A stretch of DNA of 63,942 nucleotides, the filler included, from Chrysochromulina tobinii (lineage: Eukaryota), in NCBI GenBank assembly GCA_001275005.1. It is 9 parts of 9 records of this genome, joined end to end, with 100 filler letters (N's around TTAATTAATTAA, not from the genome) between each part and the next. Parts side by side here need not be neighbours in the genome. Positions count along the whole stretch, not along the records: positions 19,791 to 28,099 come from JWZX01000339.1; 8 more parts are not named here. The stretch is one strand, 5' to 3'. Below, piece after piece: positions 17,604 through 61,595 of the stretch (position 1 is its first letter; the number at the start of each line of letters is the position of its first letter). Made by a program: the position numbers and the translations under genes. The notes beneath the pieces are model-generated. The model searched no databases, had not been told where the DNA came from, and was given only the letters and a program-made list of their open reading frames with translations.

Positions 17604-19690
17604 GTCGAGACGCGCTCGTACTTGCGCTCACGATGCCCTTCTTTGGCGTCTGGCCGCCGATGATGTCGATGTGCTCTCGCCGTCCAAATAGGACGTTTAT
17701 ACCGCTCTCGCCATCGGGCAGAGTGATCGTACAAGTCGAGACGCACTCGTTGTGCGCTCATGGTACTCGATGCCCTTCTTTAGGCGTTGGACCGTGCTTC
17801 CGCCGCGGTGCTCTCGCCGTCCACATAGGACGTTTGTACCGCTCTCGCCATCGTGCCGGGCGATCGTACAAGTCGAGACGCGCTCGTTGTGCGCTCGTGG
17901 TACTCGATGCCCTTCTTTGGCGTCGGACCGCCGCCGCCGCTGTGGTCAGCTCTCGCCGTCCACATAGGACGTTCATACCGCTCTCGCCATCGTGCAGGGC
18001 GATCGTACAAAGCGAGACGCGCTCATTGCGCGCTCATGGTACTCGATGCCCTTCTTCGGCGTCGGACCGCCGCCGCTGTGTGCTCTCGCCGTCCACATAG
18101 GACGTTTGTGCCGCCGCTCTCGCCATGGTGCAGGGCGATCGTTCAAGACGAGACGCGCCCTTTGTGCGCTCACGGTGCTCGATGCCCTTCTTTGGCGTCG
18201 GACCGCCTCCGCTGTGTGCTCTCGCTGTCCACATAGGACGTTTGTACCGCTCTCGCCATCTGGCAGGGCGATCGTTCAAGTCGAGACGCGCTCTTTGTGC
18301 GCTCACGGTGCTCGATGCCCTTCTTTGGCATCGGACCGCCGCCGTCGCTGTGCTCTCGCCGTCTACATAAGACGTTGATACCGCTCTCGCCATCGTGCAA
18401 GGTGAACGTACAAGTCGCGAGACGCGCTCGTTGTGCGCTTATGGTACTCGATGCCCTTCTTTGGCGTCAGGCCACCGCCGCCGCGGTGCTCTCGCCGTCC
18501 ACATCGGACGTTTATACCGCTCACCCGCCATCGTGCAGGGCAATCAGTCTAGTCGAGACGCGCTGTTTGCGCTCACGGTGCTTGAAGCCCTTCTTTAGGC
18601 GTTGGACCGTGCTGCCGCTCCTGTGCTCTCGCCGTCCACATAGGACGTTTATACCGCTCTCGCCATCGTGCAGGGCGATCAGTCAAGTCGAGACGCGCTC
18701 ATTGTGCGCTCATGGTTCTCGATGCCCTTCTTTTGCGTCAGGCCGCCGCGCCGCAGCTGTGCTCTCGCCGCCCACATAGGACGTTTGTACCGCGCTCTCG
18801 CCATCGTACAAGTCGAGACGCGCTCGAAGCGCTCATGGTTCTCGATGCCCTCTTTGGCGTCGGACCGCCGCCGTCGCTGTGCTCTCGCCGTCCACATAGG
18901 ACGTTTACATACCGCTCTCGCCATCGTGCAAGGCGATCGTACAAGTCGAGACGCGATCTTATTGCGCTTCCTGGTTCTCGATGCCCTTCTTTGTCGTCGG
19001 ACCGCCTCCACTGCTGTGGTCTCGCCGTCCACACAGGACGTTTACAATACCGCTCTTGCCATCGTGCAGGGCGCTCAGTCAAGTCGAGACGCGCTGTTTG
19101 CGCTCACGGTGCTCGGTGCCCTTCTTTAGGTGTTGGTCGCCGCCGCAGCCGCTGTGCTCTCTCCGTCCACATAGGACGTTTACAATACCGCTCTCGCCAT
19201 TGTGCAGGGCGATCGTTCAAGTCGAGACGCGTTCATGGTGCGCTCATGGTTCTCGATGCCCTTCTTTGGCGTCGGACCGCCGCCGCAGCTGTGCTCTCGC
19301 CGTCCACATTGGACGTTTGTACCGCTCTCGCCATCGTGCAAGGCGGGATCGTTCAAGTCGAGACGCGCTCGTTGTTTGCGCTCATGGTTCTCGATGCCCT
19401 TCTTTGGCGTCGGCCGCGCCACTGTGCCACAGTGCTCTCGCCGTCCACATTGGACGTTTGTACCGCTCTTGCCATCATGTAAAGCGATCATACAAGTCGA
19501 GACGCGCTCGTTGTGCGCTCATGGTTCTCGATGCCCTCTTTGGCGTCAGGCCACCGCCACCGCTGTGATCTTACCATTGACATAAGACGTTTGTACCGCT
19601 CTCGCCATTGTGCCGGGCCATCGTACATGTCGAGACGCGCTTCTTGCGCTCACGGTGCTCAATGCCCTTCTTTGGCGTCAGGCCGCCGCC
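17604..19690. repeat. Satellite array of ~16 units of ~135 bp, running off the contig end
   Basis: Units start GTCGAGACGCGC at about 17604, 17735, 17872, 18012, 18147, 18280, 18414, 18552, 18687, 18812, 18945, 19083, 19221, 19357, 19496 and 19629. Indels do not preserve frame. Confidence 0.95.
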
Positions 19691-19790: not shown

Positions 19791-20616
19791 AGCGGGCGCG
19801 TACGGCCGGGGCATGTCGACTTTGGTGGCGTGAGCTGATCGAGCAGCGTCGCGCAGGGCAGTGACGTGTTTGGTAAATTGGGAAGGGAAGGAAAGGGACT
19901 GGAAAGGGAGCAGGAAAGAAGAGGGAGTAGCATAGAACAGGTGCCAAAGTCCCAAAAGAGGGGGGGGTCTCAAAACAAAGCTGCATGCTAAGTACCCATG
20001 GAGTGTAGTTCAGGACTCAAATAAATGTAGTTGGTTACTCAACGCATATTATCATGCACATTCTCACGCATCATGTTTGTTTCCGGGCACGACGCGGTGG
20101 CACCGAATGGCACCGGCAGCTCGGCACAACGCGTGAAATACCTTTTTCCTCGCCACGTCACTGTTTGTTCAGGACGGGCGACACAGGACGTCTCTCACTG
20201 TTCCCCCGCCCGAGATCACGCTCTCTCGTGATCCCGTCGGCCTCTTCGGTCTCTCTCCGAATCGTCGCACTCCCTGCGGCCATAGCCGCGTCCCGCGTCA
20301 ACGGTCCTACGTAAGTACATGCATTCCCTTTTTGTTAAACCCACTTCATGCCACTTTTGGGTTGTGTCTTTTGTAAACGTCTATACATAAACAACAGACA
20401 ACACCGTAGCCTGACTTCAGTGTTCAGACTTGACTTTCACATTCACGACAGACAAGTCCCGCAATGGTCCTCAGCGTCTTCCTCACATGCTTCGGCCACT
20501 TGACCATGGTGATCCCGACGCCTCGAAATGCCATGGACGGTCCCCTAGCCGTCTTCGTTTATTCCGGAACATGAAACAGAAACAGTTCGAAAAACCCTGT
20601 TCACACCGCGAATACG

Positions 20617-21864
20617 ATGGCCGCCTTGATGAGTGGCGCTGTCGGTGCTTGCAACGCGTCCACCGCTGCGAGCTCTGCCGCGCTCTCCCGCTTTGGCTTC
20701 AGCCTCTTCGCGAACCTTTGCCACGCGAACCCCGCGCACAACGTAGTTCTGTCGCCACTCGTCGTCGCCGGCGCGCTCTCGATGGCCGTCGCCGGCGCGA
20801 CAGCCGGAGGCAAAACGGAGCAGGAGCTGCTCGGCCTGCTCGGCTTGAGCACGCACGCCGACTTTGCGGTCCTCACATCGGCGGTCTTGGCCTCCAGTGG
20901 CGCTTCCGTGAGCGCCGCCAATGGCATCTTTACGCGAGCAGCGGTCAGACCCGACTTTGTGGCGCTCGTGCGGTCGGCGCACGGCGCGTACGCCGACAAG
21001 CTCGGCTCCTCATACGGCCCCATCAATCAATGGGTCTCTGAGAAGACGCAAGGCCACATCCGAGACCTGCTCAGCGATCCCGTCGACCCGCTCACGGTGG
21101 CGGTGCTTGTGAGCGCCGTCTTCTTCAAGGGCTCATGGGCGACAAAGTTCGACGCAGCCTTGACGGCGGCGTCGGTCTTCTCAGCTCTGGACGGGCGTGC
21201 GTTGCCAGCCATGATGATGCGTCGCTCCGGCACGTTGCATGCGTCCGCGTCCGTCGACGAGCTCGCTGGCGCCGCCGCTGTCCGGCTCGACTATGGCGCG
21301 GGCGATGGACCGCATGACTTTTGTGCGCTGCTCGTGCTGCCTCCGGTGCCGGGCGCCACCGCGCTAGCGGCGACGGTGCTGGCCATGTCGTCGGGCGACG
21401 CGAGTGGCACGGCGATGCTGTCCCGTCTGCACCCGCAAAGGGTCGACCTCGAGCTGCCACGGCTCAAGGCAGAGTACGGCGCCGCATCCCTCAAGGTAGC
21501 TTTACGCTCCCTGGGGCTCGTCGAGAGCTTCGACGGCCACGGGGGCTTCCTTGGGCTGTCTCAGGATGAGGCAGTGCGCATCGACGACGTGGTGACCAAG
21601 GCGATGCTGGAGGTGGACGAGGAGGGCACCACCGCCGCCGCCGCCGCCGCCGTGATCATGCGGACCAAGTCGGCCGCGGCCCCACGCCCGCCGCTCCGGC
21701 TCGTTTTCGACCGACCCTTTGTGATGGCGGTGCTGCACGTGCCCACTGGCGTGCCCCTGTTCGTGGCGCAGCTCAATGAGCCTGCTGTGCCCGCCGTGGC
21801 ACACCTGATCGGCGATCACGGTCGCGCTCACGGTCACGGTCACGGTCACGATCGCCACCACTGA
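20617..21864 (+). CDS. Serpin (inhibitory-type hinge) with His/Gly-rich tail
   Basis: NVVLSP, INQWVSEKTQGHI, SAVFFKGSW, EVDEEGTTAAAAAAVIMRTKS and FDRPF; tail HGRAHGHGHGHDRHH. Confidence 0.95.
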   Translation: MAALMSGAVGACNASTAASSAALSRFGFSLFANLCHANPAHNVVLSPLVVAGALSMAVAGATAGGKTEQELLGLLGLSTHADFAVLTSAVLASSGASVSAANGIFTRAAVRPDFVALVRSAHGAYADKLGSSYGPINQWVSEKTQGHIRDLLSDPVDPLTVAVLVSAVFFKGSWATKFDAALTAASVFSALDGRALPAMMMRRSGTLHASASVDELAGAAAVRLDYGAGDGPHDFCALLVLPPVPGATALAATVLAMSSGDASGTAMLSRLHPQRVDLELPRLKAEYGAASLKVALRSLGLVESFDGHGGFLGLSQDEAVRIDDVVTKAMLEVDEEGTTAAAAAAVIMRTKSAAAPRPPLRLVFDRPFVMAVLHVPTGVPLFVAQLNEPAVPAVAHLIGDHGRAHGHGHGHDRHH

Positions 21865-22184
21865 CCCTGCTGGTCTGCACCGTCGCAGGGGCTACCGCCT
21901 CCTCAGCCGTGCGCGGCTTGCTCAGCCATGGCTGCAGGTCACGGTGCTCGATCGCCGCGATGAGCGCACTGACGACCCAGGTACAGGGCCTCGGGTGCCG
22001 CATCACCTCGCTGCAGGGGCTGCGTGACTGGATCCGGTGGCTCTACTGGCAGGACATGCTCAACCCCGGCGTCGAGTGCGGCGTTGCCTTCCTCCTCGAG
22101 CGAGGGCACGTCGGCATCTGTTGGCTTCCGATGGCCTCTGGTTGCGTCTGTGGTCGCGCTCGATGCGTTCCTGATGTATCCGTC

Positions 22185-22421
22185 TGGGAACGGGAGCCCC
22201 TGGCTCCAGGACCCCTTGCATGCCGCTTAGAGGGTCCGGCGTGTAGACCTGACCTCTCTAGAGCGGGTCGAAGTCCGAATGAGGTTCTTGGATGTCACCA
22301 CTGGACAAACACTCTTCGACTCGCGCGCGGAAACACCGCGCGCCCTTTCACCGGGACAGCGCTTGACGTAACTCTACGTGCATGCGACCGGAACGTCCCG
22401 GACCCGGTTTACCGACTCGCA
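22185..22421 (-). repeat. 3' LTR (237 bp, TG...CA)
   Basis: Minus strand begins TGCGAGTCGG directly after G8 and ends GTTCCCA. Its last 44 nt match the contig-terminal copy. Confidence 0.8.
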
Positions 22422-22435
22422 CCCCCCCCAATTAA
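22422..22435 (-). promoter_or_regulatory. Polypurine tract
   Basis: TTAATTGGGGGGGG immediately 5' of the LTR TG. Confidence 0.7.
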
Positions 22436-22488
22436 GGTGGAGCCTGAATTGATTTAGAGGAGGTTACTCGTCTCCTGATCCCGTGCTG

Positions 22489-25400
22489 TCACCCGTCGCT
22501 ACGCAGTCGAAGCTTGTGGCCCGGGTATCCCCTCTGTCCAAGAAAGCGAGGGTGTGGAGCGCGACCACCATGAAATTGTTCGTGAGCTCCGTCGCGTTCT
22601 CGACGAGGATGGTTGTGGCTTGAACCTGAATGGCGTCGTCTCGACGCACAGCTCCTCGAGCTCATGGTACATGGAGCTGAGCTTTTCGAGCTCGTCGGCG
22701 AAGGCCGTGTCCTGGTCGAGCGCCTTTTTGTTGATGCCCTTCTCGTGAAGCGTGTTGAGCTTTTGACGCACTGCTGGATTTCCGCCCGCATCTGCTTGAA
22801 GGACATACTCGTGTGCGCACCGGTGGCTGCGTACGCTTGCTGCGGCAGCGTGCCAAGCTTGCAGATGTGCTGTTCAAACACCTCCGCCTTCTGCTGGAGA
22901 ATCGCCTTTTTCTGCAAGAGCATGTCTACCTGCTTGGCCGTGTCTGCGCGCCCCTTGGCCGCGTCAGCTGCCTTGAAGCACATCTCGTCGAGCCGCTCCT
23001 GCGAGGCTTGTGAGGTTTGTGCCCTCGCGCGCTGCGTGTCCGCGATTTTCCGACTCGCGTCAAGCACCTCGGCCGCGGCCGCGAGACGCTCCTTGGCCAC
23101 GCACAGCTCCTCGGCCGCTGCGCCACCCGACTGCCACTCGTCTCCCGCTGCGTCGGCGTCTATGGTGCGCTCGAGCGCCTCCTTGAACTCGTCCTGCCGA
23201 TTGCGCAGATCCTCCGAGAGAGACGCGCGCAGCGACGACACACTCGCGTGCGCTCGGGCGGCCGCGGGCGCAGCGGCATCTCGCTCCCTGCGCTTCTCGC
23301 GCAGCTGCTCCTGCTTCTCGGTGAGCTCGCGCCGCCCGGCGTCCGTCGGCTTCCCGTCGGGCTCGAAGTTCGCCTTGAGCGCCTGCTGCACTGCGCGCAG
23401 CTGCTCCTGGTCCGACTCAATCGCGGCCTGCAGCGCCTTGTGCGCGCTCTTCTTTTGCTTATTGACTGCCTTGCGCGCGTCGCGCGACGTGCCGATAACG
23501 CCGCCGGTGATGCCGCTCGACGACGACTCAGCGCCACCGCGGTCGGTGCCGCCGCCGCCCGTCGTCCCCGTGTCGATGGCCTCGAGCACATCTTCGAGAT
23601 CGGCCTCGCGCGGCCGCTTGTTGTGGGCGACGGTGTGCTTGTCGAGCTCGCCCTGCGTCTCGAGCGCTCTCGCCTCGTGCTGCTCCTTGTCCCGCTCCAG
23701 CTGCGTGAGGTTCGCGTCGAGCGCCTTGAGCCGCCCGCGCAATTGCGCGAGGTCTGCCTGTGCCCTGCGCGACTTGCGCGCCTCGTGCCAGCCGCTTGAC
23801 ATGGAGCCCTTACAGATCGCCTTGTCGCCGGCGAGCGTGACGCGGTTGACGTCGTGCTCTCGAGGCTTGGCCGCACCCGTCTGCGCGAACACCGTCTTGT
23901 GGAAGACGTGCCGGAAGCGCTCCCTGAACTGGAGCACCAAGTACGCTGGCTTGAAGTAGAACACCTTGTCACCCGGCCCAGCGGCCTTGACGTACGAGTT
24001 GAGCGACAGCCTGCCCTTCGCAACGCCGAGCGCGCGCAGCTCCTCCTCTGTAAAGGCATGCTTCGGGCTCGCGCTCTTGAGCTGCTTCTCGAGCGCCGCC
24101 GTGAGCGGCGCGTTCTCGAACTCGACTCCGTCCTTGGGTACGCCCTCGCCCTTGTTCTTCCACTTGAGGCCGAGCGTCGCTCGCCCCTTGGGCACAAAGG
24201 GCATCACGCCCTCGCCAGGGTCGGGCTCGGGCTTGACGCGCAGCCGGTTGAGAGGCATGAACGTCGCGCGGCCCGCGCTCGCCTGCTTGAGCTCCTCGAC
24301 GAGTTTGGGCGTTACGTCGTCGCTGTCGACGACCATGTGTAAGAGCTGGTTGCCTGCGGCCACGTTGACGGCCGTGTTGAACTTGCCGTCACACCTGATC
24401 AGCTCGAGCAGCAGGCCGTGCGCGCACTTGATCCGCTTTTCGCGCACGATGCGCTTGCATGCGTCGAGAGCTTCCCACTGATTTCGGCTCATCGAGTGCG
24501 CCAACGTGCGCTCTGGCTTGGCAAGCTGTTCCTCTATCGCCTTGCGCTCCTTACGCACGTTGGCGTCGCGCCGCCACAGTTGCTTGCGCTGATCCGTCGG
24601 TTCCGCGTACTCGGTGCGCCAGCGCGCGCACTTGTCCTGCGCGTCCGCCACGCGCTTGCGCCGCTCGTCCGCCTTAGAACGCCGCTCGGCCTCGTGTTCT
24701 TCCGACTTCTGGCGCTGGTACTTGGCGGCGTCGAGCTCCTTCTCGAGGCTTTTGGCCTGCTCCGACTTCTTGTCAATGGCCTCGCGCAGCAGCTCTGCCT
24801 CCTTGGTTAGGTGCTTGTCGCGCTCCTTCTTCGAGCTGAAGCGATGCCCGCCGGCCTCTTTCGAGTGTAGCTGCAGCAGCACCGCCTCGATGCGCTCCAT
24901 CTCGCGCGCGGCCGCGGCGGCGGCGTTCTGCAGTGCCGCCCGCGGCTCTAGCTCGCCGAGATTCTGCTCGACGTCGGCGATGCTCGCATCCACCTGCTCG
25001 AGCTCCGCCTCCTTCTCGCGCTTTGTGTGCGCGACCTCCTCAGCCTTGTGGTCTGCGTCGAGGCGCGCCGTGTGCTCGAGTCGCTTCTTATGCTCGGCCG
25101 CACGTGCCTTGGTCTCGGCGACGGCGCTCTTGAGGCTCTCGCCGAGCACTCGGAGCTGCCGCTCGTGCTCCTTGGTCGTGCTCGTGAGCTCCTCGTCGTC
25201 CGTAGCCGAACGGGAGGCCATCTCGCTCGACTGGGCGCGTTTGGAAACCGACGAGGCGATCCCGCTTTTGGCGCGCATGAGCTCCGTGTGGTAGTACGTG
25301 TATTCAACCACCTTGCGCCGCCTGTCGAGGCGCGTGTAGGCCTCGAGCTCATCCTTCTCAGCTGCGAGCCCCGCGAGCTTCGTCTCGATCGTCGTCGTCT

Positions 25401-28092
25401 GCTCCTTGCACCGTTGCGTGTTATCCTCCGAGTCGGCGAGTGTGCGCAGCGACTTTGCCTTCTGGTCGTCGTACGTCGAGACGCCCGCACCGTCTTTGAG
25501 CGTGTTGAGCCCCTGCTTCTCGCTTGCGCATTCAGCCTCGTGCCTCTGCTTATCGGCCGCGGCCAACTCCATGTAGGCCGCCTTATCGGCCTCTTCGAGT
25601 ACCTTCCCCTGCGCCTTGATCATCTCGGCTATGGCGAGCGCATCAAGCCCTGGGTGCGTCGCTGTCAGCATGAGGCTCTCCGCCGCGGTGTAGAACTGGA
25701 CAGCGGTCTTCGCGACGCGCGGCCCGTGTTCTGCCTCGCGCTTCTTCTTGGTCTCCTCGGCCGCTTCGTCCTCGGCGGTCGTGGCGGCCGCTGCGCGCTC
25801 GCTCGCCTTGGCGGCGCGCGCCTCCGCCTTTACAGCTTTCTCCTCTTCCTTTGCTGCCCGTGCCTCCGCGCGAGCCTTGGCCTGTGCGAACTTCGTCGCC
25901 TCGGGCGTCGTCTTGTAGAGCTCGAAGGCGTTGATGACCCCGTACTCCTCGAGGACTTCCTTGTCGCCGTCGTCGTGGTCCACATGGAACAGCGGCGACT
26001 CGTCCTCGCCATCGCCGGCGGGCAGCCAACGCGTGATCCGGCCGAGCACCATCAGGCTACCCTCTAAGGGGCGCGCGACGCGACGCCCGAGGTACTCGTG
26101 GCCCTCGTCGCGCCAGCCCTCGGTCGGGTCCTCTTCCGCGCCCTTCGTCGGCTCCTTGGTTAGCTCCCGAAGCGCCTTTTCGAACTTGGTGCGCATGGCC
26201 TTGGACTTGATCTTGGTCGTATCGGCGAGGTCCTCCCTGCTGCTGTACGGCAGCGGCGTCGACGGCATTGGCGAAAGCTCTATGCGCTCCGTCGTGTGGA
26301 AGAAGCGCACCGGGTAGCGCTCGCCCTCGGCATCCGTGCGCAGGGTGCCAGCCACGCGGGCGGGCCACCATGGGAATCCGCGTATCTTGGCCCAAACAAG
26401 GTCGTCCTGCTCAAAAGTGGGGGCGACGGCGGGGTCGTCGTCGAGCATGTGCTCGGGGTCCACCTGTGCCATGCTGGGCTCGTCGGCCACCTGCGGCATC
26501 TCGGTCTCGGTCGACGTTGCGCGAAGCTCTGCGCCACGGCTCCCGCGCTTCTCAAGCTCCCCTGGCTTTGACCCTGACTGTGGCTCTGGCACTGATTGTT
26601 GCTCTGGCTCTGATTGTTGCTCTGGCTTTCGTGGCTCTGGCTGCGCCTCTGTGTCACGCGGCAGATGCTTCCCGCGCTCACGCGGGCTCTCTGGCCCGAT
26701 TTGCGTCGCATCGACGCGCGGCTGCTGCGGCCGCTGCGCGAGAGCTGACTGCTCCTCGCGCTCCCGTGAGCTCTCTGGCCCGATCTGCGTCGCACCGACG
26801 CGCGGCAGCTGCGGCCGCTGCGCGAGAGCTGACTGCTGCACGCGCTCACACGGGCTCTCTGGCCCGGTCTGCGTCGCACCGACGCGCGGCAGCTGCGGCC
26901 GCTGCGCGAGAGCTGACTGCTGCACGCGCTCACACGGGCTCTCTGGCCCGGTCACGCGCGGCTGCTGCGGCCGCTGCGCGAGAGCTGACTGCTGCACGCG
27001 CTCACGCGGGCTCTCTGGCCCGATCTGCGTCGCACCGACGCGCGGCTGCTGCGGCCGCTGCGCGAGAGCTGACTGCTGCACGCGCTCACGCGGGCTCTCT
27101 GGCCCGATTTGCGTCGCACCGACGCGCGGCTGCTGCGGCCGCTGCGCGAGAGCTGACTGCTGCACGCGCTCACGCGGGCTCTCTGGCCCGATCTGCGCCT
27201 CTGTGGCACGCGGCTGCTGTGGCCGCTGCGCGAGAGGAACGCTCTCCTTGTGCTCACTGTTTGGCCCGATCTGCGCCACTGCGACGTACGGCTGTTGCTG
27301 CGGCTGGTGCAAATGCTGCGGCCGATAGAGGCCATGCTCTCGTGAATACTGCCGTTCGGCTGTTTCAAGAGTCGCTCTGACTTCAGCCTCACGCCTCAGT
27401 GTTTTGTGCTGCGCGGCATCTAGCTCGCAGCCTTGCTGCACGCGCTGGCGGAGCACTTCGATCTGGCACAACTTCTTTTGCAAACGCTGAATGACCACTG
27501 CCTGAGTCCGAAGGGTCTCGAATTCGGGCGAGCCCGGCACGGGTCTGTCGCCCACGGTCGGGTAATTCCGGACATCTGCCTCCGAAACGGAACGGGCATT
27601 TCCCGTCGCATCGACGGCCTCTGTCGTTCTCGGCGTGTTCTGCATTGTTTTTGCCCAAACTTTGTCGGCATGTCGACCCACACGGGGGGCTCGAACCTGC
27701 GGTTCGTAGTGCGCCTCGCTGGGCATCGCACGCGGGAGTGTGGACGATCCGTCCTCCGCTTCTGCCTCTTCGTACGTTGCTTCGCCGTACGTGAAGGTTT
27801 CGTTGCGTGCCTTGGTTCCGGCACTTGACTCGGGCATGGCCCGTCGCGGGAGTGTGGACGATCCGTCCTCCGCTTCTGCCTCTTCGTACGTTGCTTCGCC
27901 GTACGTGAAGGTTTCGTTGCGTGCCTTGGTTCCGGCACTTGGCTCGTACGAGTTCTCGTCGTACGCTGGGGCCTCTGGTGGTGCCTTGGTTTCGGCACCT
28001 GTTCTGGGGTTCACCCAGGGATCGTTGAAGATCGTTGACTTACCACTCGCTACCATGGGAACGGGAGCCCCTGGCTCCAGGACCCCTTGCAT
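22489..28092 (-). CDS. Chimeric intronless 1867-aa ORF: repeats + PWWP + Tudor-like + degenerate HMG-box + SMC3 coiled-coil/hinge without ATPase heads; SMC3 frame lost near 22763
   Basis: PWWP: DLVWAKIRGFPWWPARV. HMG-like: PRVAKTAVQFY...YMELAAADKQRHEAE. SMC3-like: AGVSTYDDQKAKSL...RRRKVVEYTYY, FSSKKERDKHL, TAVNVAAGNQL..VVDSD, RATFMPLNRL, FRHVFHKT, LGTLP. The INKKALDQ continuation lies in another frame. Confidence 0.75.
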   Translation of the reverse strand: MQGVLEPGAPVPMVASGKSTIFNDPWVNPRTGAETKAPPEAPAYDENSYEPSAGTKARNETFTYGEATYEEAEAEDGSSTLPRRAMPESSAGTKARNETFTYGEATYEEAEAEDGSSTLPRAMPSEAHYEPQVRAPRVGRHADKVWAKTMQNTPRTTEAVDATGNARSVSEADVRNYPTVGDRPVPGSPEFETLRTQAVVIQRLQKKLCQIEVLRQRVQQGCELDAAQHKTLRREAEVRATLETAERQYSREHGLYRPQHLHQPQQQPYVAVAQIGPNSEHKESVPLAQRPQQPRATEAQIGPESPRERVQQSALAQRPQQPRVGATQIGPESPRERVQQSALAQRPQQPRVGATQIGPESPRERVQQSALAQRPQQPRVTGPESPCERVQQSALAQRPQLPRVGATQTGPESPCERVQQSALAQRPQLPRVGATQIGPESSREREEQSALAQRPQQPRVDATQIGPESPRERGKHLPRDTEAQPEPRKPEQQSEPEQQSVPEPQSGSKPGELEKRGSRGAELRATSTETEMPQVADEPSMAQVDPEHMLDDDPAVAPTFEQDDLVWAKIRGFPWWPARVAGTLRTDAEGERYPVRFFHTTERIELSPMPSTPLPYSSREDLADTTKIKSKAMRTKFEKALRELTKEPTKGAEEDPTEGWRDEGHEYLGRRVARPLEGSLMVLGRITRWLPAGDGEDESPLFHVDHDDGDKEVLEEYGVINAFELYKTTPEATKFAQAKARAEARAAKEEEKAVKAEARAAKASERAAAATTAEDEAAEETKKKREAEHGPRVAKTAVQFYTAAESLMLTATHPGLDALAIAEMIKAQGKVLEEADKAAYMELAAADKQRHEAECASEKQGLNTLKDGAGVSTYDDQKAKSLRTLADSEDNTQRCKEQTTTIETKLAGLAAEKDELEAYTRLDRRRKVVEYTYYHTELMRAKSGIASSVSKRAQSSEMASRSATDDEELTSTTKEHERQLRVLGESLKSAVAETKARAAEHKKRLEHTARLDADHKAEEVAHTKREKEAELEQVDASIADVEQNLGELEPRAALQNAAAAAAREMERIEAVLLQLHSKEAGGHRFSSKKERDKHLTKEAELLREAIDKKSEQAKSLEKELDAAKYQRQKSEEHEAERRSKADERRKRVADAQDKCARWRTEYAEPTDQRKQLWRRDANVRKERKAIEEQLAKPERTLAHSMSRNQWEALDACKRIVREKRIKCAHGLLLELIRCDGKFNTAVNVAAGNQLLHMVVDSDDVTPKLVEELKQASAGRATFMPLNRLRVKPEPDPGEGVMPFVPKGRATLGLKWKNKGEGVPKDGVEFENAPLTAALEKQLKSASPKHAFTEEELRALGVAKGRLSLNSYVKAAGPGDKVFYFKPAYLVLQFRERFRHVFHKTVFAQTGAAKPREHDVNRVTLAGDKAICKGSMSSGWHEARKSRRAQADLAQLRGRLKALDANLTQLERDKEQHEARALETQGELDKHTVAHNKRPREADLEDVLEAIDTGTTGGGGTDRGGAESSSSGITGGVIGTSRDARKAVNKQKKSAHKALQAAIESDQEQLRAVQQALKANFEPDGKPTDAGRRELTEKQEQLREKRRERDAAAPAAARAHASVSSLRASLSEDLRNRQDEFKEALERTIDADAAGDEWQSGGAAAEELCVAKERLAAAAEVLDASRKIADTQRARAQTSQASQERLDEMCFKAADAAKGRADTAKQVDMLLQKKAILQQKAEVFEQHICKLGTLPQQAYAATGAHTSMSFKQMRAEIQQCVKSSTRFTRRASTKRRSTRTRPSPTSSKSSAPCTMSSRSCASRRRHSGSSHNHPRRERDGAHEQFHGGRAPHPRFLGQRGYPGHKLRLRSDG
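26670..27280 (-). repeat. Coding 84-bp tandem repeat, ~7 copies (GPESPRERVQQSALAQRPQQPRVGATQI)
   Basis: CTCTGGCCCG recurs every 84 nt; one unit is 72 nt. Confidence 0.95.
27731..27941 (-). repeat. Coding ~114-bp tandem duplication
   Basis: SAGTKARNETFTYGEATYEEAEAEDGSSTLPR occurs twice. Confidence 0.9.
28043..28055 (-). promoter_or_regulatory. Primer-binding site (initiator-Met tRNA-like)
   Basis: TGGTAGCGAGTGG abuts the LTR-terminal CA and is complementary to a tRNA ending ...CUCGCUACCA. Confidence 0.7.
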
Positions 28093-28099
28093 GCCGCTT

Positions 28100-28199: not shown

Positions 28200-28371
28200 C
28201 TCAGCACGGCGCCCCAGCGGAGGCGGCACCGAGAGCAGCGGACACGTGGCATGCAAGTGCTCAGCACGGCGCCCCAGCGGAGGCGGCACCGAGAGCAGCG
28301 GACACGTGGCATGCAAGTGCTCAGCACGGCGCCCCAGCGGAGGCGGCACCGAGAGCAGCGGACACGTGGCA
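28200..28371 (+). repeat. 60-bp coding tandem repeat at contig start (AQHGAPAEAAPRAADTWHAS)
   Basis: ~2.9 exact copies; same unit as 37945-38133. Confidence 0.95.
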
Positions 28372-37500: not shown

Positions 37501-38133
37501 CGAGATTGACGGACGGAGCGCTGACGAGTGACGCGCTGACGAGTGACGCGCTGACGGCGACGCCAACGATCAGGGCCCTGCCAGCCGCATGCAATGTCAG
37601 CAGTACAGCGAGCACAGCCGCTCGCCTTCGGAACGTTGGAGATTCGTCAACTGCCGCATGCAATGTCGGCAGTACAGCGAGCACGGCCGCTGCGCCAGGC
37701 GAGGGCGCGGTAGCAAGCGTCGTGTTGGGCGCCTCCAGGCCAGGCGAGGGCGCGGTCGCAAGCGTCGCTGCGGCGCATGACGTGGAGGCGCCCAACACGA
37801 CGCCCAGCATGGCGCCCAACACGGCGTCCAACATGGCGCTCAGTACGACGCCCAACACGACGCCTGTCGTCGAGGCGCCAGAGGCGTCGGAGACCGAGCT
37901 CAAGCCGGAGGCATCGATCGCTTTGAAGCAGACGGATGCAGCCGCGGAGGCGGCACCGAGAGCAGCGGACACGCGGCATGCAAGCGCTCAGCACGGCGCC
38001 CCAGCGGAGGCGGCACCGAGAGCAGCGGACACGCGGCATGCAAGCGCTCAGCACGGCGCCCCAGCGGAGGCGGCACCGAGAGCAGCGGACACGTGGCATG
38101 CAAGTGCTCAGCACGGCGCCCCAGCGGAGGCGG
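34528..38133 (+). CDS. Large low-complexity protein with double zinc ribbon; probable introns 36544-36754 and 37148-37268; open at contig end
   Basis: RFCFACGTKL...LFCSSCGQ and a coiled-coil exon. The GT..AG introns contain (GATTGCCTCT)n or (GATTGCGCCT)n and restore frame. Start uncertain. Confidence 0.55.
36805..36932 (+). repeat. 42-bp coding tandem repeat x3 (RDLLAARAESRGQS)
   Basis: GATCTCCTCGCAGCTCGGGCCGAATCTCGGGGCCAATCTCGG repeated three times. Confidence 0.9.
37945..38133 (+). repeat. 60-bp coding tandem repeat at contig end
   Basis: ~3 copies, same unit and orientation as 28200-28371. Confidence 0.95.
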
Positions 38134-38233: not shown

Positions 38234-41200
38234 AGGAGATCGGCGACGAGGGCGGCATGGTCGTCGCAGGTCTCATACCTGCTATGTCGGTGCTCGCGCG
38301 CGTCGACATGCGCGGCAACAACTTGGGCGTCGAGGGCTGGACCAGTATCTTCAACGCCTTGCGCGACAGCCCCACCAGCAAGATCTCCGCATGGGACCTG
38401 TCCCGCGAGAACTTGGGCCCTGGGATCGCTACGCCACTGGCCGAGTACCTCTGTACTTCTACAATGATCACCGAGTGCAACCTGCGCGGCAACAACTTGG
38501 GCGTTGAGGGCTGGACCAGCATCTTCAACGCCCTGCGCGACAGCCCCACCAGCAAGATCACCGCATGGGACCTGTCCGGCGAGAACTTGGGCCCTGGGAT
38601 CTCTACGCCACTGGCTGAGTACCTCGGTACTGCTACATCGGTGCTCGCGCGCGTCGACATGCGTGGCAACAACATTGCGGGCGACAGCGCCGCGCAGCTC
38701 TCAGCCGCTGTCCTCGGCAACCTCAAGATCGAGATGTTCAACGGGATCCCGATCAAGGAGATGCGCGCCAACTCCATCACCGAGCTCGACCTGAAGGGCA
38801 AGGAGATCGGCGACGAGGGCGGCATGGTCGTCGCAGGTCTCATACCTGCTATGTCGGTGCTCGCGCGCGTCGACATGCGCGGCAACAAGATCACGGGCGA
38901 CAGCGCCGCGCAGCTCTCAGCCGCTGTCCTCGGCAACCTCAAGATCGAGATGTTCAACGAGATCCCGATCAAGGAGATGCGCGCCGACTCGTTCACGGAG
39001 CTGGACCTGGAGGGGAAGGACGTCGGAGTCGAGGGAGGTATGGTCGTGGCAGGACTCATACTCGTCATGGGCGCCTTGACACAGGTGCTCGCTTTCTGAC
39101 ACCCCCTTGACTGCCTTGAAAGTTACTCTGACCCTTGGTTTTGCTTTGAATGTTATTTTCAGCTGGACCTCTCATACAACCAGCTGTGCGGCCTCGATCG
39201 TTATGGGGAAGGAACTTACAATGCAGAGGGGATCACAGCAATTGCCGACGCTTTGCGCGTTAATGGCGGGCTGACAAGTCTCAATCTCTCGTCCAACAAT
39301 CTCTGTTCCTTGGTGAATGAGACTGGCTACATCAAGGCAAGCCAGGTCCAGGGCTCTTCCTTCAATGTGGGCGACAAAGTTGTTTATCAGGGCAAGGAAA
39401 TGATCGTCTCTAAGGCCAAAGATAGAGATGGTGACCTCAAAATGACCAACTTGCCAGACTGGTCTGGTCTCAATGCTCTTGCGGATGCCTTCCGCGTTAA
39501 TGGCGCGCTGACGAGCCTGGACATCTCAAACAACAGGATGGGTGACGACGGTGTGAAACTGATCTGTGAGGCCCTCAAGCAGAACAGCAGCTTGAAGGTG
39601 CTCGACCTGAACGCGAGTTATACCAGAGGTGGAGAAATCGGTCCACAGGGCGCCCAATATCTCGTCGACATGCTCAGCGTTAATGGCGGGCTGACGAGCA
39701 TCAAGATGTCCGGAAATGATCTCACTGACTCCGGCGGGGACATGACGGGCATCAAGGAGCTCGCCGCAGCTCTTGGCGTCAACGGCGCCTTGACACAGGT
39801 GCTCGCTTTCTGACCCCCCAGAGGCCATTTCTGTTCCTCTAACCCTTGCCTTTGTTTTGGATGGTATCACAGCTGGACCTCTCACACAATCAGCTGTGCG
39901 GCATCGATGCTGATGGCAAAGGACAATACAATGCAGAGGGCATCACTGCAATCGCCGACGCCATGCGCATGCGTGTTAATGGCGGGCTGACGGTGGCCAA
40001 CCTCCTGGGTAATCAGCTCGATGCGGAGTCCGCCAAGATGCTCGCTGAGGTCGCCAAGCAGAAGGGCATCTCGCTCTGCGGCATCCAGCGCGACCAGACC
40101 ACCGCTGACTTCTCCCTATACGAGCCGCCCGATGCGATCCTGCTGGCGTCGGACCTGTCACAGGCTGTAGTCACGGGCGTGCTGACGAGCCTGGACCTCG
40201 AGGGCACGCTGTGCGGCCTCGACAGCCATGGGCGTGGAACTTACACTGCAGAGGGGATCACAGCAATTGCTGAAGCTCTGATCGTCAATGGCGTGTTGAC
40301 AGGCATCAACGTCCGCGACGGCGATATTGCGGGCGACGGCGCTACGCAGCTCTCAGCTGCTGTCCTAGGCAACATCAAGATCGAGATGTTCAACAAGATC
40401 CCGATCAAGGAGATGCGCGCCGACTCGTTCACAGAGCTGGACCTGAAGGGGAAGGGCTTTGGAGTCGTGGGAGGCATGGTTGTTGCGGGACTCATACCCG
40501 TCATGGGCGGGCTGACGAGCATCGACCTCTCCGGAAACAACTGGTTGTGTGGCATCTGGACTGACGGCTTTGGCGACCAACAAGGCACCTACACAGCAGA
40601 GGGCATCATTGCAATCGCCGACGCCCTGCGTGTTAATGGCGGGCTGACGGTGACCAACCTCCTGGGGAATCAGCTTGATGCGGAGTCCGCCAAGATGCTC
40701 GCTGAGGTTGCCAAGCTGAAGGACATCTCACTCTGCGGCATTCAGCGTGACCAGACCACCGCCGACTTCTCCTCGTACGGACTCCTGCCACCCGATGCGA
40801 TCCTGCTGGCGTCGGAACTGTCACAGGCCAGTGTCACAGGCGCGCTGACGGCCCTGAATTTGTCCTCTAACTGCCTCGGAGATGAGGGCGTAAGCGCAGT
40901 CTGCAAGGCCATCCAGAGCAACAAGGAGACCAAGCTCGCGTCGCTCAACTTCGAAAATAATGGAATCGGTCCAGTTGGAGCAAACGCTGTGGCGGCTATG
41001 GTAGCCGTCACAGGCGGCCTGCACGGCCTGCATCGCGTCTCGCGTCATCCGCTGCTCTGGTCGCTCGCGTTCGTCGGCCTAGGTGCCGCGCTCGCGGTGC
41101 CCTCGGTGCCGCAGGCCGTGTGGCTGTGCGGCCCGGCCCTAATGGCTCTGTTGGGCGGCGCCCACATTGACTTCCGTCATCGGCGCCAGCTTGGGGCCAC

Positions 41201-43190
41201 GCTGACAAGCATCGACCTCTCCGGAAACCAGCTGTGTGGCATCTGGACTGACGACGATGGCGACCAACATGGCACCTACACCGCAGAGGGCATCACTGCA
41301 ATCGCCGACGCCCTGCGTGTTAATGGCGCGCTGACGGTGACCAACCTCCTGGGTAATCAGCTCGATGCGGAGTCCGCCAAGATGCTCGCTGAGGTCGCCA
41401 AGCAGAAGGGCATCTCGCTCTGCGGCATCCAGCGCGACCAGACCACCGCTGACTTCCGCAACCAGGACCTCCAGCCGCCCGATGCGATCCTGCTGGGGTC
41501 GGACCTGTCACAGGCTGTTGTCACAGGTGGGCTGACAAGCATTGACCTCTCCGGAAACCAGCTGTGCGGCATCTATTTTAAATGGGGAGAATATATTCGA
41601 GGCACCTACACCGCAGAAGGCATCGCTGCAATCGCCGAGGCCCTGCGCGTTAATGGCGGGCTGACGTCACTCAACCTCTCGTCGAATCTTATCGGAGGCT
41701 ACTGGGACCACGAACAGCGAACAAACGTCTTCACCCCTGAGGGGCCAAAAGCTATTGCAGATGCGCTTTTGGTCAATGGCGCGCTGACGAGCCTGGACAT
41801 ATCAAACAACCGGATGGGTGACGATGGTGTGAAACCGATCTGTGAGGCCCTCAAGCAGAACAGTAGCTTGAAGGCGCTAGACCTGAACGCAAGCCAGACC
41901 AGTGGTGGAGTAATTGGTCCACAGGGCGCCCAATATCTCGCCGACATGCTCAGCGTTAATGGCGCACTGACGGCCCTGAATTTGTCCTCTAACTACCTCG
42001 GAGATGAGGGCGTAAGCGCAGTCTGCGAGGCCATCCAGAGCAACAAGGAGACCAAGCTTGCGTCGCTCCACATGGGCAAGAACCGCTTCGGTCCAGTGGG
42101 AGCAAAGTCAGTGGCGGCCATGGTGGCCGTCACAGGCGTGCTGACGTCTATCAACCTCTCCAACAACGTGCTGTGCGGTGTGGAACATTGGGGCCAGGGC
42201 ATTTACACTGTAGAGGGCATCACTGCAATCGCTGACGCCCTGCGAGTTAATGGCGCGCTGACGAGCCTGGCCATATCAAACAACCGGATGGGTGACGACG
42301 GTGTGAAACCGATCTGTGAGGCCCTCAAGCAGAACAGTAGCTTGAAGGCGCTAGACCTGAACGCAAGCCAGACCAGTGGTGGAGAAATTGGTCCACAGGG
42401 CGCCCAATACCTCGCAGACTTGCTCAGCGTTAATGGCGCATTGACGTCCGTCGACCTCGGGGGCAACAAGCTCGGGGACGAGGGCTGGGGCGCCATCTTT
42501 GCCGCCATCTGCGGCAACAAGGACAGCAAGATCATGTCTATGGACGCGTCCTCCGAGAGCATCGGCCCTGCTGGTGGCAAGCTGATCGCCGAGGCGCTCC
42601 GCACGAGCGTCACAGGCGCATTGACGTCCGTCGAGCTCAGAGGCAACGAGCTTGGGGACGAGGGCTGGGGTGCCATCTTTGCCGCCATCTGCGGCAACAA
42701 GGACAGCAAGATCATGGCTATGGACGCGTCCTCCGAGAATATCGGCTCTGCTGGTGGCAAGCTGATCGCCGAGGCGCTCCGCACGAGCGTCACAGGCGCA
42801 TTGACGGTGACCAACCTTCTGTGCAATCGACTTGATGCGGAGTCCGCCAAGATGCTCGCTGAGGTCGCCAAGCAGAAGGGCGTCTCGCTCTGCGGCATTC
42901 AGCGTGACCAGACCACCGCTGACTTCTCCCACTCCCTACTCGAGCCGCCCGATGCGATCCTGCTGGCGTCGGACCTGTCACAGGCCGTTGTCACAGGCGC
43001 GTTGACATGCGTCGACGTCCGCAGCAACAACATCGAGGACGACGGCGCTGAGCAGCTCTCGGCCGCTGTCCTTGGCAACCTCGAGATCGAGATGTTCAAC
43101 GGGATCCCGATCAAGGAGATGCGCGCCAACTCTTTTACGGAGCTGGACCTGATGGGGAATGGTGTCCGTGGTGTTCGAACACGACGATGA
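38234..43190 (+). CDS. NLRC3/RNI-like leucine-rich-repeat protein, 5'-partial; introns 39085-39162 and 39799-39872
   Basis: Dozens of LTxLDLSxNxLxxEG repeats ending ...ALRVNG[AG]. Both introns begin GTGCTCGCTTTCTGAC and end CAG|CTGGACCTC. Confidence 0.9.
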
Positions 43191-45080: not shown

Positions 45081-45113
45081 ACCTCGACGACCGTGGTCTC
45101 CCCATGTTCGCAG

Positions 45114-45328
45114 CCAAGATCCAGAATGACCTTCGCATCCTCACCGAGCGGCTGGCGCGCATCAATGACAACCTTGCGCGCAAGGTTTCATCGCGTACAG
45201 AGTACGATAAGACGATCACCGAGACCGAGGCGGCCTACTCCAAGATCATGGAGGCGTCGCAGACGCTGCTGCACGTGCTCAAGCGCGAGAGCGTCAATCT
45301 GACGAAGAAGAAGCAGGCTTCCTCGTGA
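45114..45328 (+). CDS. SSNA1: SSNA1/NA14/DIP13 homolog, last exon of second copy (5'-partial)
   Basis: [54 protein letters not shown], preceded by acceptor TTCGCAG. Confidence 0.85.
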
Positions 45329-46080
45329 GCGCCCCTACCTCGTGTGTGTGCTCGTGAGGCATCATGGCGTCACAGGATTAGAGTACACCGTGTTCGAAGT
45401 GTATTATTGGCCCCGCCGCCGCGGTCCACAGTGTGCGGGGTCTCGTCAGTCGTCTCGGCCTCCGACAGTCGCACCCCCTTTAAAGCGCGGCGCGCCGGGT
45501 CGGCTTCGGCCCCGTGGTGGAATTGGAGAATCAGTAGCGACGTGGGCAATGGTGCTAACCAAAAACGGATATCGTTAATCGTAAAAACCGGGTGTGCGCC
45601 GGCACGACGACAGTTGTTACCGTACTCTCGAGCCGGTCGTGGACTTGCACAACTCGTTTTTACGTACCCGCCTGGGCGCGGGCGGTCGGTCACCTTCGCG
45701 CGTGGACCGTGGTAAGTCGGAAACGCCCGAGGCTAACGGGCGAGACCCGCGACCGGGCGGTGGGGAGTCGGGCCGCTGCAACCCGAGCCGACCGAGCACC
45801 GACACAAAGCTCAAAGGACGTCCACGGTCTATAGTAGTTTGGTACATGCCCCGCCCACCTCCATGCTCAAATCCCGCTGCCAGCGGCGAGTGCCAATGTA
45901 GACCAGTGGTACGGCTGCGAGCATTACAACGGCGAAGGCTCCACCAATGAGCAATTGTCAAAGTCCACGTGCTCCATGTGGTATGAGCCCACATATCAAC
46001 AATGCGAGCGGTGACATCCCCGGCCAGCTCTGCGACTCTTGCAGGACTGAAGATGACGCCCTTGCCTGGTCAGGGGCCGA

Positions 46081-46640
46081 TCACGAGGAAGCCTGCTTCT
46101 TCTTCGTCAGATTGACGCTCTCGCGCTTGAGCACGTGCAGCAGCGTCTGCGACGACTCCATGATCTTTGAGTAGGCCGCCTCGGTCTCGGTGATCGTCTT
46201 ATCGTACTCTGTACGCGATGAAACCTTGCGCGCAAGGTTATCATTGATGCGCGCCAGCCGCTCGGTGAGGATGCGAAGGTCATTCTGGATCTTGGCTGCG
46301 AACATGGGGAGACCACGGTCGTCGAGGTCAGCGAGGCGGAAGATGCCAGTAGGGTTGCGTCAGCGGTGCGCTTTGGGCGATGGCGCACCCTTCTCTTCCT
46401 CGTCAGCAGCAATCGATCGGTTCAGCTCCTCACGCTTCTCCCGAAGCTGCGGCGAACAGCAAGCAAGCCGAGGGCATCGTGAGCAGTCCGAAATGGGAAC
46501 CGAGAGCACGGGCGCCTCCGCACGTGAGCCGAGGCCCTCACTCGCGCGCTGTGCGCGCGGCCGTGTGCAGACGCACGTACCTCCTCAATGCACCCGACCA
46601 AATCGTTGTTGTAGTTTTGCAACGTGGCGCCCTCGGCCAT
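46081..46640 (-). CDS. SSNA1: SSNA1/NA14/DIP13 microtubule-associated protein, 3 exons (46640-46581, 46446-46389, 46295-46081; 110 aa)
   Basis: [32 protein letters not shown]...; two GT-AG introns restore frame. Confidence 0.92.
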
Positions 46641-61000: not shown

Positions 61001-61595
61001 AGGGCGCACTCGAGCTGGTGGATGTGCTCGCGTGCCTTGTCAAGCTCCTCGATCGACTGCACTTCGATTGGCACGATGTGGCCGAGCCATTGGTGCGCGA
61101 TTGCATTGAAGGTGTCAATGGCCGCAGTCTCCGAGAGCCCTGGGAGGACGCGCTCGAGCGCGGCCGAGACCGGCATTGTCAGCCCGGTCGATCGCAGGAC
61201 TCGACGTGGCGCCCCCTGCTGCAGCGCTATCACTGGGAAGGGCGCGGCAGGCACGGGTGCAGCAGCGGCAGGCGAGGGCGCGTTGAGCAGCCGCCACGGT
61301 TGGTGCTGCGATGTGAGGTCAAAGAGCTTGCCCTTCCACTTCGGATCGTCGGCCCAGCTCCTGTCATCCCAGCTCAGCTCGGTGAACACCTTGCCCGACT
61401 CTTGCTTGTGGGACTTGGTGACCGTGGCCGGGAACCATGTAGGCTTCTGCTTGTCCGTGTCGAAGCACATCTCGAGTCGCGTGCCATCAGGCAGCGGCTC
61501 GTAGCCTGCCTGGATGATGATCGGGGCGGGCGGTGGCTTCGGCGGGGCAGCGAGCACGAGCGGCGCGTAGGTCGCATCGTCGTCCGTCTGCACTT
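58030..61595 (-). mobile_element. Ty1/copia LTR retrotransposon pol (RT-RNase H), 5'-partial, uninterrupted
   Basis: RT: FKSRLCSAG, TDFKNAY, PIWGEAAAGNEW, ITNVDDIL. RNase H: HADAN, NESVA, GTDNSAN, KAKH, VDTASMPVDFMTK. Confidence 0.9.

What the first reader, a model, noticed from the sequence alone, without database searches (positions are those of the whole stretch)
22185..28099. LTR retroelement that replaced gag-pol with a chimeric chromatin protein (PWWP-Tudor-HMG-headless SMC3)
Seen: complete cis signals on the minus strand (LTR end CA, tRNA PBS, G8 PPT, 237-bp TG...CA LTR, 44/44 identity over the comparable LTR part). No RT, integrase or protease motifs. One 5.6-kb intronless ORF starts in the LTR, reads through the PBS and stops ~60 nt before the PPT. 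It fuses histone/DNA-reader fragments to the cohesin SMC3 arms and hinge, with neither ATPase head. Known: LTR elements can capture mRNAs by template switching, and SMC hinges mediate SMC1/SMC3 dimerisation. Inference: a recently mobile multi-gene transducing element whose product might target chromatin or interfere with cohesin. Caveats: high GC makes long ORFs easier to keep, conserved residues are eroded, and the SMC3 frame is lost near 22763, so the cargo may be neutral.
Basis: partly seen in the sequence, partly recalled or inferred. Interest (0 to 1): 0.85.

Follow-up and report, generated by a model that had tools for sequence, protein, structure and literature searches.

The report
Copia element carrying fused host genes
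An algal retrotransposon has swapped most of its own genes for in-frame pieces of two host chromosome genes, and the 1,869-residue fusion changes like unconstrained DNA yet carries no stop codon, which likely reflects selection to keep the RNA translated rather than a new chromatin or cohesin function.

Summary
The element is real. It is a non-autonomous Ty1/copia derivative in a Chrysochromulina haptophyte. Other assemblies give the 5' LTR, 234/234 identical to the 3' LTR, but it lacks its first 3 nt and has no TSD; sister insertions have 5-bp TSDs. An autonomous copia with the same LTR exists (L005). The ORF keeps about 150 gag codons. It then runs through a second short-ORF family, a host PWWP-Tudor-HMG gene and headless host SMC3. 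Both host parents and a second diverged lineage of the fusion were found. The cargo shows no protein constraint: omega is about 0.9-1.1, conserved SMC3 sites are hit as often as variable ones, and HMG, Tudor and hinge motifs are eroded. Yet there are 0 stops where about 6-7 are expected, and all 8 indels in the cargo body are in frame. Best reading: a Bs1-like gene capture whose frame, not its protein, is selected, likely for RNA stability or packaging. Cohesin interference is not supported. The kind of element is known; the open-frame signature is the unusual, testable part.

The parts
28056..28099 (-). 3' end of the 5' LTR, cut by the contig end. The full 5' LTR in L004/L009/L011 is 234 bp and lacks the first 3 nt
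28043..28055 (-). Primer-binding site TGGTAGCGAGTGG, shared with the 5' LTRs of sister copies; the gag ATG overlaps the LTR end and PBS
   Evidence: initiator-tRNA assignment is inferred from the A1:U72 rule (recalled) and untested
22489..28098 (-). Single 1,869-aa ORF (ATGs at 28092 and 28056)
27592..28056 (-). Copia gag 5' part (about 150 codons, with a 114-nt duplication), a mosaic of L005-like and L013-like sequence
26512..27603 (-). Segment from a second family of short ORFs (MVAV...LRLRGDG*): a coiled-coil motif also found in host proteins, plus 84-nt repeats at 26666-27306
25525..26511 (-). Captured 5' part of a host PWWP-Tudor-HMG-DDT gene (PWWP 26152-26403, eroded Tudor 25894-26109, eroded HMG 25525-25731)
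22762..25527 (-). Captured host SMC3 arms and hinge, in frame, no ATPase heads; includes a host-derived 85-aa insertion in the hinge (23932-24198)
22560..22761 (-). Further SMC3 sequence out of frame (frameshift near 22760; a second, inferred, near 22650)
22489..22524 (-). ORF end HKLRLRSDG*, matching the C-terminus and stop of the short-ORF family
22422..22483 (-). Copia 3' segment shared with sister copies, ending in the G8 polypurine tract (22422-22429)
22185..22421 (-). 3' LTR, 237 bp, TG...CA
22180..22184 (-). First 5 flanking bases (GACGG); not duplicated at the 5' end, so no TSD

Best explanation
This is a non-autonomous Ty1/copia element in which the start of gag is fused in one frame to a short-ORF family segment, a host PWWP-Tudor-HMG gene and headless host SMC3; it was likely built by stepwise template switching onto co-packaged host mRNAs, likely moves with help from an autonomous partner, and likely keeps its frame open because its RNA must be translated almost to the PPT, not because the protein works. 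Shown: the anatomy, the parents, the autonomous copia with the same LTR, PBS and gag start, two diverged lineages with the same junctions, near-neutral amino-acid change, and no stops or frameshifts until the last 270 nt. Inferred: an RNA route of capture, repeated transposition (cargo about 8% from its parent while the LTRs are identical), and the cause of frame selection (escape from nonsense-mediated decay, or translation-coupled packaging). The retained gag 5' part would supply the packaging signals in cis.
For: Two LTRs, 234/234 identical, sharing 4 alleles absent from the other LTRs compared, which differ from them at 6-10 sites. The flank/5' LTR junction is in 0-difference contigs of 2 of 2 DNA runs laid (30 letters on the LTR side). 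The HMG-SMC3 junction is bridged in 2 of 2 DNA runs. Autonomous partner L005: same LTR and ORF start, order gag-protease-integrase-RT, RVT_2 E 2e-7. Host SMC3 is 98.2-99.9% identical across the members listed, so the changes lie on the element's branch. Lineage B (P0029, P0003, P0028) shares 49 SMC3 and 16 PWWP-HMG derived changes and the junctions. Neutral sequence: 7 synonymous of 26 SNP rows and at most 30 of 96 pooled changes, against 0.29 expected; conserved sites hit 24/155, variable 98/625, P=1. Open frame: 0 nonsense against 6.0 expected on the window's path (P 0.002) and 7.3 with lineage B (P 7e-4), unchanged by a CpG correction; 8 of 8 indels against the parents and 4 more private to B are in frame. 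Literature passages: mini-Ty1 needs the 5' 380 nt in cis (PMC4974528); copia RNAs with long 3' UTRs are proposed NMD targets (PMC5580714).
Against: No TSD and 3 nt missing from the 5' LTR, so this insertion was altered later or integrated abnormally. No intron loss or DNA-level microhomology could be shown, because no parent DNA was obtained. Ascertainment: the ORF was flagged because it is long, and lineage B was first found by a search limited to >=1027 aa; B's private changes alone predict only 1.2 stops. Deletions between repeated Ala/Glu codons may favour multiples of three by mechanism (inference). Mini-Ty1 RNAs lacking functional products transpose in trans (PMC4974528), so translation is not a universal need. 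Truncated sister copies exist (L001, L013). RNA evidence is contigs only. Identical LTRs could partly reflect assembly collapse or gene conversion. Only one insertion site was seen.
Confidence: 0.6

Rival explanations
1. The fusion protein is functional: PWWP tethers it to chromatin and the SMC3 hinge and arms poison or remodel cohesin, so selection acts on the protein.
For: The PWWP signature GFPWWP...VRFF is unchanged and scores E 1e-11. The N-terminal half of the hinge still scores in Pfam. The ORF is intact in two lineages. RNA-run contigs carry element-type alleles.
Against: Omega about 0.9-1.1 and no sparing of conserved SMC3 sites. The hinge motif GDQVNRKGSMSGG becomes GDKAICKGSMSSG, with G1435S shared by both lineages and two deletions in the hinge C-half; that this glycine motif is needed for hinge dimerisation is recalled. 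HMG W831G and Y853H are shared, and 23 aa of the HMG box are deleted in lineage B. The Tudor segment has no Pfam hit.
Confidence: 0.1
2. Nothing is selected: the cargo is a neutral passenger, and the open frame is luck plus ascertainment among many such captures.
For: Neutral amino-acid pattern. The tail has frameshifted. The window and lineage B were both picked up through long ORFs.
Against: Joint improbability: P about 0.002 for no stop, times 8 in-frame indels of 8. Frameshifts occur only in the last 270 nt, where all three frames stop within 80 nt of the PPT. A search of shorter proteins across the HMG-SMC3 junction returned 0 broken fusions among 6 hits, though only 7,994 candidates were scored. 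In PMC5131818, 14 of 21 LTR retrocopies at >=1% divergence had a loss-of-function mutation (passage); this one is about 8% diverged.
Confidence: 0.17
3. The cargo entered at the DNA level (segmental duplication, gap repair or gene conversion into a resident element) and the element only carried it afterwards.
For: No TSD. The PWWP-Tudor module is shuffled among several host genes, and part of the window copy matches paralog P0018 rather than P0005. P0002 has a parent-like tract in the hinge. No intron loss is shown.
Against: All host pieces are sense, in frame and coding. The PWWP piece begins at about the host start codon. Part of the element's own ORF is replaced rather than interrupted, the feature PMC5131818 uses for template switching.
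Confidence: 0.11
4. Assembly chimera, or two solo LTRs around a genomic pseudogene.
For: Short-read assemblies, a high-copy LTR, repeat numbers that vary between assemblies, and no TSD.
Against: Three further assemblies (L004, L009, L011) contain the whole element. Independent Logan contigs bridge the HMG-SMC3 and tail-LTR joints. The PBS and PPT sit in the correct places, both LTRs share private alleles, and diverged lineages share the junctions.
Confidence: 0.02

Closest known systems
Maize Bs1 (known here through passages of PMC5131818 and PMC13317346; the 2010 primary paper was not held)
   Same: LTR element whose internal region holds fragments of several host genes joined into one hybrid ORF, with copies sharing switch points
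   Different: Haptophyte host; much longer cargo (3.7 kb, 1,869-aa ORF); built on a second short-ORF chassis; Bs1 is described as a translated, possibly functional gene, whereas here the protein sequence shows no constraint
LTR-mediated retrocopies of Tan et al. 2016 (PMC5131818), including CG10212_r; CG10212 is SMC2 (table rows of PMC8022729)
   Same: Part of the element ORF replaced by partial host mRNAs, both LTRs kept, sense and in frame, secondary spread; an SMC gene has been captured this way before
   Different: Their in-frame cases are under 1% diverged and most older ones are broken; this one is about 8% diverged and still open
Ty1/copia superfamily; mini-Ty1 and TRIM/LARD-type non-autonomous derivatives
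   Same: TG...CA LTRs, PBS, PPT, retained gag 5' region, helper with integrase before RT
   Different: Carries a long translated host-derived ORF instead of non-coding internal DNA
Cohesin subunit SMC3
   Same: Arms and hinge, about 88% identical to the host protein over aligned positions (806 of 919)
   Different: No ATPase heads, damaged hinge. A public gene model (P0019) names this element 'SMC3-like protein', which is a misannotation

Membership tests
Ty1/copia LTR retrotransposon (non-autonomous derivative) | Two direct LTRs with TG...CA ends | tested here: met
   234/234 identical; 3' LTR complete; 5' LTR lacks its first 3 nt
Ty1/copia LTR retrotransposon (non-autonomous derivative) | PBS after the 5' LTR and PPT before the 3' LTR | tested here: met
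   shared with sister copies
Ty1/copia LTR retrotransposon (non-autonomous derivative) | PBS complementary to a host tRNA 3' end | not testable with these tools
   no host genome held; no tRNA gene in the window
Ty1/copia LTR retrotransposon (non-autonomous derivative) | Target-site duplication | tested here: not met
   TTCAT upstream vs GACGG downstream; 4 of 4 other 3' LTR ends have a matching 5-bp 5' flank among sister loci
Ty1/copia LTR retrotransposon (non-autonomous derivative) | Autonomous partner with the same LTR and copia domain order | tested here: met
   L005: DSGA protease motif, integrase SH3-like domain, RVT_2; contig ends before RNase H
LTR-mediated retrocopy (Bs1 / Tan 2016 type) | Part of the element ORF replaced by partial host genes between both LTRs | tested here: met
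LTR-mediated retrocopy (Bs1 / Tan 2016 type) | Microhomology at switch points | tested here: inconclusive
   protein level only: one shared Ala at the HMG/SMC3 joint, and repeated AAE flanking the 69-aa deletion; no parent DNA
LTR-mediated retrocopy (Bs1 / Tan 2016 type) | Loss of parental introns | tested here: inconclusive
   the unspliced call P0004 equals the named model P0034 without gaps over the captured part, so there is no intron to lose; PWWP parent DNA not obtained
LTR-mediated retrocopy (Bs1 / Tan 2016 type) | Secondary retroposition (several insertion sites) | tested here: inconclusive
   several alleles and two lineages; identical LTRs with old cargo; but only one insertion site seen
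LTR-mediated retrocopy (Bs1 / Tan 2016 type) | Transcription from the LTR | tested here: inconclusive
   element-type contigs in 2 of 2 RNA runs; contigs cannot show strand or level, and DNA carry-over is not excluded
Functional SMC3 / cohesin subunit | Walker A, signature and Walker B ATPase head | tested here: not met
Functional SMC3 / cohesin subunit | Intact hinge glycine motif and purifying selection | tested here: not met
   G1435S and two deletions; conserved sites not spared

The most novel reading that the evidence does not exclude
Copia derivatives in this alga can persist only if their RNA is translated without interruption from the PBS to near the PPT. Captured mRNAs are then kept as in-frame fusions whatever they encode, which makes the family a machine that produces and spreads very long, expressed multi-domain chimeric proteins without any selection on their function. 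The short MVAV...LRLRGDG ORF family and the shuffled PWWP-Tudor host paralogs would be earlier products of the same process.
Probability: 0.35. Interest if true: 0.72.

Novelty: new variant of a known kind. Interest (0 to 1): 0.52.

Why it matters
It separates two things usually read together: an intact long ORF in a transposon-captured gene is often taken as a sign of function, and here the frame is preserved while the protein decays. If the cause is RNA surveillance or translation-coupled packaging, gene capture by LTR elements is filtered for in-frame fusions, which bears on how chimeric genes arise. It extends Bs1-type capture to haptophytes, for which my searches listed no report, and it shows that a public 'SMC3-like' gene model is really a transposon.

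Tried and rejected
No whole genome is held. Scans of viral contigs for the ORF, the LTR-PBS joint and P0083 found nothing, and genome contigs gave no SMC3 parent, so parent DNA and a codon-level dN/dS are missing. A search for longer proteins with the N-terminus returned only P0001 and P0002, which is weak evidence since it also missed L013's ORF. The ESM Atlas gave no usable hit for the N-terminus and was unreachable for the hinge insertion. A displaced TSD was considered: GACGGTGC occurs 780 nt upstream in L011, but inside a continuous Pro-rich reading frame, so it was rejected. No empty-site sequence was seen. CpG decay as the reason for missing stops was rejected, with no CpG excess. The other copia in the window (58030-61593) is not the partner: no shared LTR, 25% RT identity. 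The paper search for the PBS string gave only unrelated titles in the 10 of 56 listed. The serpin flank had no cover in the two RNA runs, which is not taken as evidence. Earlier-findings look-ups returned nothing. No complex was predicted because no host SMC1 sequence was in hand.
Full report
Context. The window is a string of contigs joined by N-linkers; the finding lies on the contig 19791-28099, whose end cuts the 5' LTR. Named hits place the host in the haptophyte genus Chrysochromulina. The nearest gene is a serpin at 20575-21864.

Observation. The 237-bp LTR, PBS, G8 PPT and 44/44 identity are as described. The minus-strand ORF 28098-22489 has 1,869 codons; the other five frames hold 16-49 stops. 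Pfam gives PWWP (E 1e-11), SMC hinge (E 6e-16) and a weak HMG box. PDB gives human SMC3 residues 147-979. No ATPase-head, protease or RT motif is present.

The whole element. A scan for the LTR end returned 16 loci, 3 of which (L004, L009, L011) hold the complete element. The 5' LTR is identical to the 3' LTR over 234/234 nt, and both carry four alleles absent from the other LTRs compared, which differ from them at 6-10 sites. The two LTRs therefore most likely come from one reverse-transcription event. The 5' LTR lacks its first three bases and there is no TSD (TTCAT against GACGG). In contrast, 4 of 4 other 3' LTR ends have a matching 5-bp flank at a 5' LTR among the loci (ACTGC, GGTAC, CACGT, GTCCC; paired across separate contigs). 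The odd 5' junction is present without differences in contigs of two more runs, with 30 letters on the LTR side. It is best read as a later deletion or an abnormal integration. Contigs with no differences bridge the HMG-SMC3 joint (25184-25757) and the tail-PPT-LTR joint (22404-22837) in both DNA runs. There, the element and the parent SMC3 contigs have similar depth (45 and 47), and the LTR is far deeper.

The partner. L005 has the same LTR and PBS, followed by an ORF of more than 1,785 aa that starts with the same residues and has protease, integrase SH3-like and RVT_2 features in copia order. DNA similarity to this gag start runs from 28056 to about 27592. So the ORF start in the LTR and PBS is simply the native gag start, and gag is truncated and fused rather than removed. 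Passages of PMC4974528 place the cis-acting packaging signals of Ty1 in the first 380 nt, which would explain why this part is kept.

The other sources. Residues 166-530 and the last ten residues match a family of short ORFs that begin MVAV and, in the two complete examples P0072 and P0083, end LRLRGDG*. Whether that family uses the same LTR was not shown. Its coiled-coil motif recurs in host-like proteins P0080 and P0082. The host cargo sits within the last 25 or so codons of this ORF, and the window's ORF ends at that family's own stop. Residues 530-858 come from a PWWP-Tudor-HMG-DDT gene (P0005), with a stretch closer to paralog P0018; residues 858-1779 come from SMC3 (P0004). The 85-aa insertion in the hinge is already in host SMC3.

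Lineages. Close variants (P0002, P0021, P0024) and a diverged lineage B (P0003, P0028, P0029) share the junctions they cover; P0029 runs from the gag start into SMC3. Host SMC3 members listed are 98.2-99.9% identical to each other, while the element differs at 113 of 919 aligned residues. Lineages A and B share 49 SMC3 and 16 PWWP-HMG derived changes. A small tree separates the 5 element rows from the 5 host rows with modest support, 91/88. Cargo DNA is about 8% from the parent (38 of 486 and 32 of 418 nt), while the LTRs allow at most about 1.3%. Capture is thus much older than this insertion, which suggests repeated mobilisation (inferred).

No constraint on the protein. Of the 40 SNP rows shown (363 not shown), I used the 26 in the host-derived cargo and dropped 14 in the LTR, flank and repeat region: 7 are synonymous and 19 not. 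Adding two contig pieces gives at most 30 synonymous of 96. The neutral expectation from the observed spectrum is 0.29, so omega is about 0.9-1.1. This estimate is rough and made without parent DNA. SMC3 sites conserved in six distant homologs are changed as often as variable ones (24/155 and 98/625, P=1). The HMG box carries W831G and Y853H and loses 23 residues in lineage B. The Tudor segment has lost its Pfam match. The hinge has G1435S in both lineages plus deletions. The PWWP signature is intact, which is the main point left for a functional product.

Constraint on the frame. With 127-128 derived missense changes on the window's path, about 6 nonsense changes are expected and none is seen (P 0.002). 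Adding lineage B gives 7.3 expected (P 7e-4), and a CpG-aware version gives the same figure. All 8 indels against the parents keep the frame (one may be inherited from a paralog), as do 4 private to B. The 7 indel events inside the ORF among the 12 rows shown are all multiples of three (15 rows not shown). Frameshifts appear only after 22760, where each frame meets a stop within 80 nt of the PPT. Ascertainment weakens this: both the window and lineage B were found through long ORFs, and B alone is not significant. Deletions between repeated codons may also favour in-frame lengths.

Mechanism. Shown: structure, parents, helper, neutral residues, open frame. Inferred: template switching onto co-packaged mRNAs, as in passages of PMC5131818; mobilisation in trans; and selection against early stops because an untranslated multi-kilobase 3' region would trigger decay or block packaging. 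PMC5580714 proposes such NMD sensitivity for copia RNAs (passage). Against this, mini-Ty1 elements without functional products transpose. RNA-run contigs of element type exist in X11 (for example 22404-22836 and 25791-26169) and X12 (27179-27465), but contigs cannot prove transcription.

Comparison and verdict. The architecture is that of maize Bs1 and of the LTR-mediated retrocopies of Tan et al., one of which (CG10212_r) is an SMC2 copy with several insertion sites. I saw passages of PMC5131818, PMC13317346, PMC5580714, PMC4974528 and PMC12477816, table rows of PMC8022729, and only search listings for the rest; the primary Bs1 paper was not held, and no supplements were read. Listings showed no haptophyte case and no report of frame-only selection in such elements; that is limited to the library searched. 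The finding is a real new variant of a known kind. The cohesin-interference idea is not supported, and the open-frame signature is the part worth testing.

Noticed in passing
L005:1421-1654 (minus) and window 61285-61512 (minus): Two copia polyproteins carry a Tudor/chromo-barrel-like domain between integrase and RT. For L005: Pfam Tudor_5 E 3e-5, below the cut-off; five-strand model at pLDDT 62; best fold matches are chromo-barrel and Tudor domains, all at E>=0.08. The two segments match each other at E 7e-4. PMC12477816 calls a Gypsy case the first TE with a Tudor domain, so a copia case may be new.
   Followed up: partly
window 23932-24198; P0004 residues about 583-668: Host SMC3 has an 85-aa insertion inside the hinge with no Pfam match. 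A 39%-identical piece occurs in an unrelated gene in the L005 flank, suggesting a mobile coding module.
   Followed up: partly
P0005, P0006, P0015-P0018: The PWWP-Tudor module is fused to different C-termini in several host genes at 80-88% identity, which suggests recent domain shuffling.
   Followed up: no
P0058, P0059, P0068, P0072, P0074, P0075, P0083: A family of short ORFs starting MVAV/MVSV with 28-aa repeats; possibly another non-autonomous LTR family. No DNA was obtained.
   Followed up: partly
L001:5195-5700; L013; P0027: Truncated sister copies: LTR, PBS and about 90 gag codons with no second LTR; a gag broken at about 500 aa; and a 78-aa ORF running from the gag start into LTR sequence.
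   Followed up: no
window 28200-28371 and 37944-38133: The same 60-bp tandem repeat lies at both ends of one contig.
   Followed up: no
window 45081-45335 and 46074-46328: A 255-bp inverted repeat at 98% identity, possibly the ends of a small DNA transposon.
   Followed up: no
window 17604-19690 and 38234-43190: A tandem array of about 135-bp units, and a repetitive leucine-rich-repeat gene cluster.
   Followed up: no
L011:800-1151: The 5' flank of the element is single-depth non-coding DNA with a short palindrome, preceded by a Pro-rich reading frame that has a second copy or allele.
   Followed up: partly
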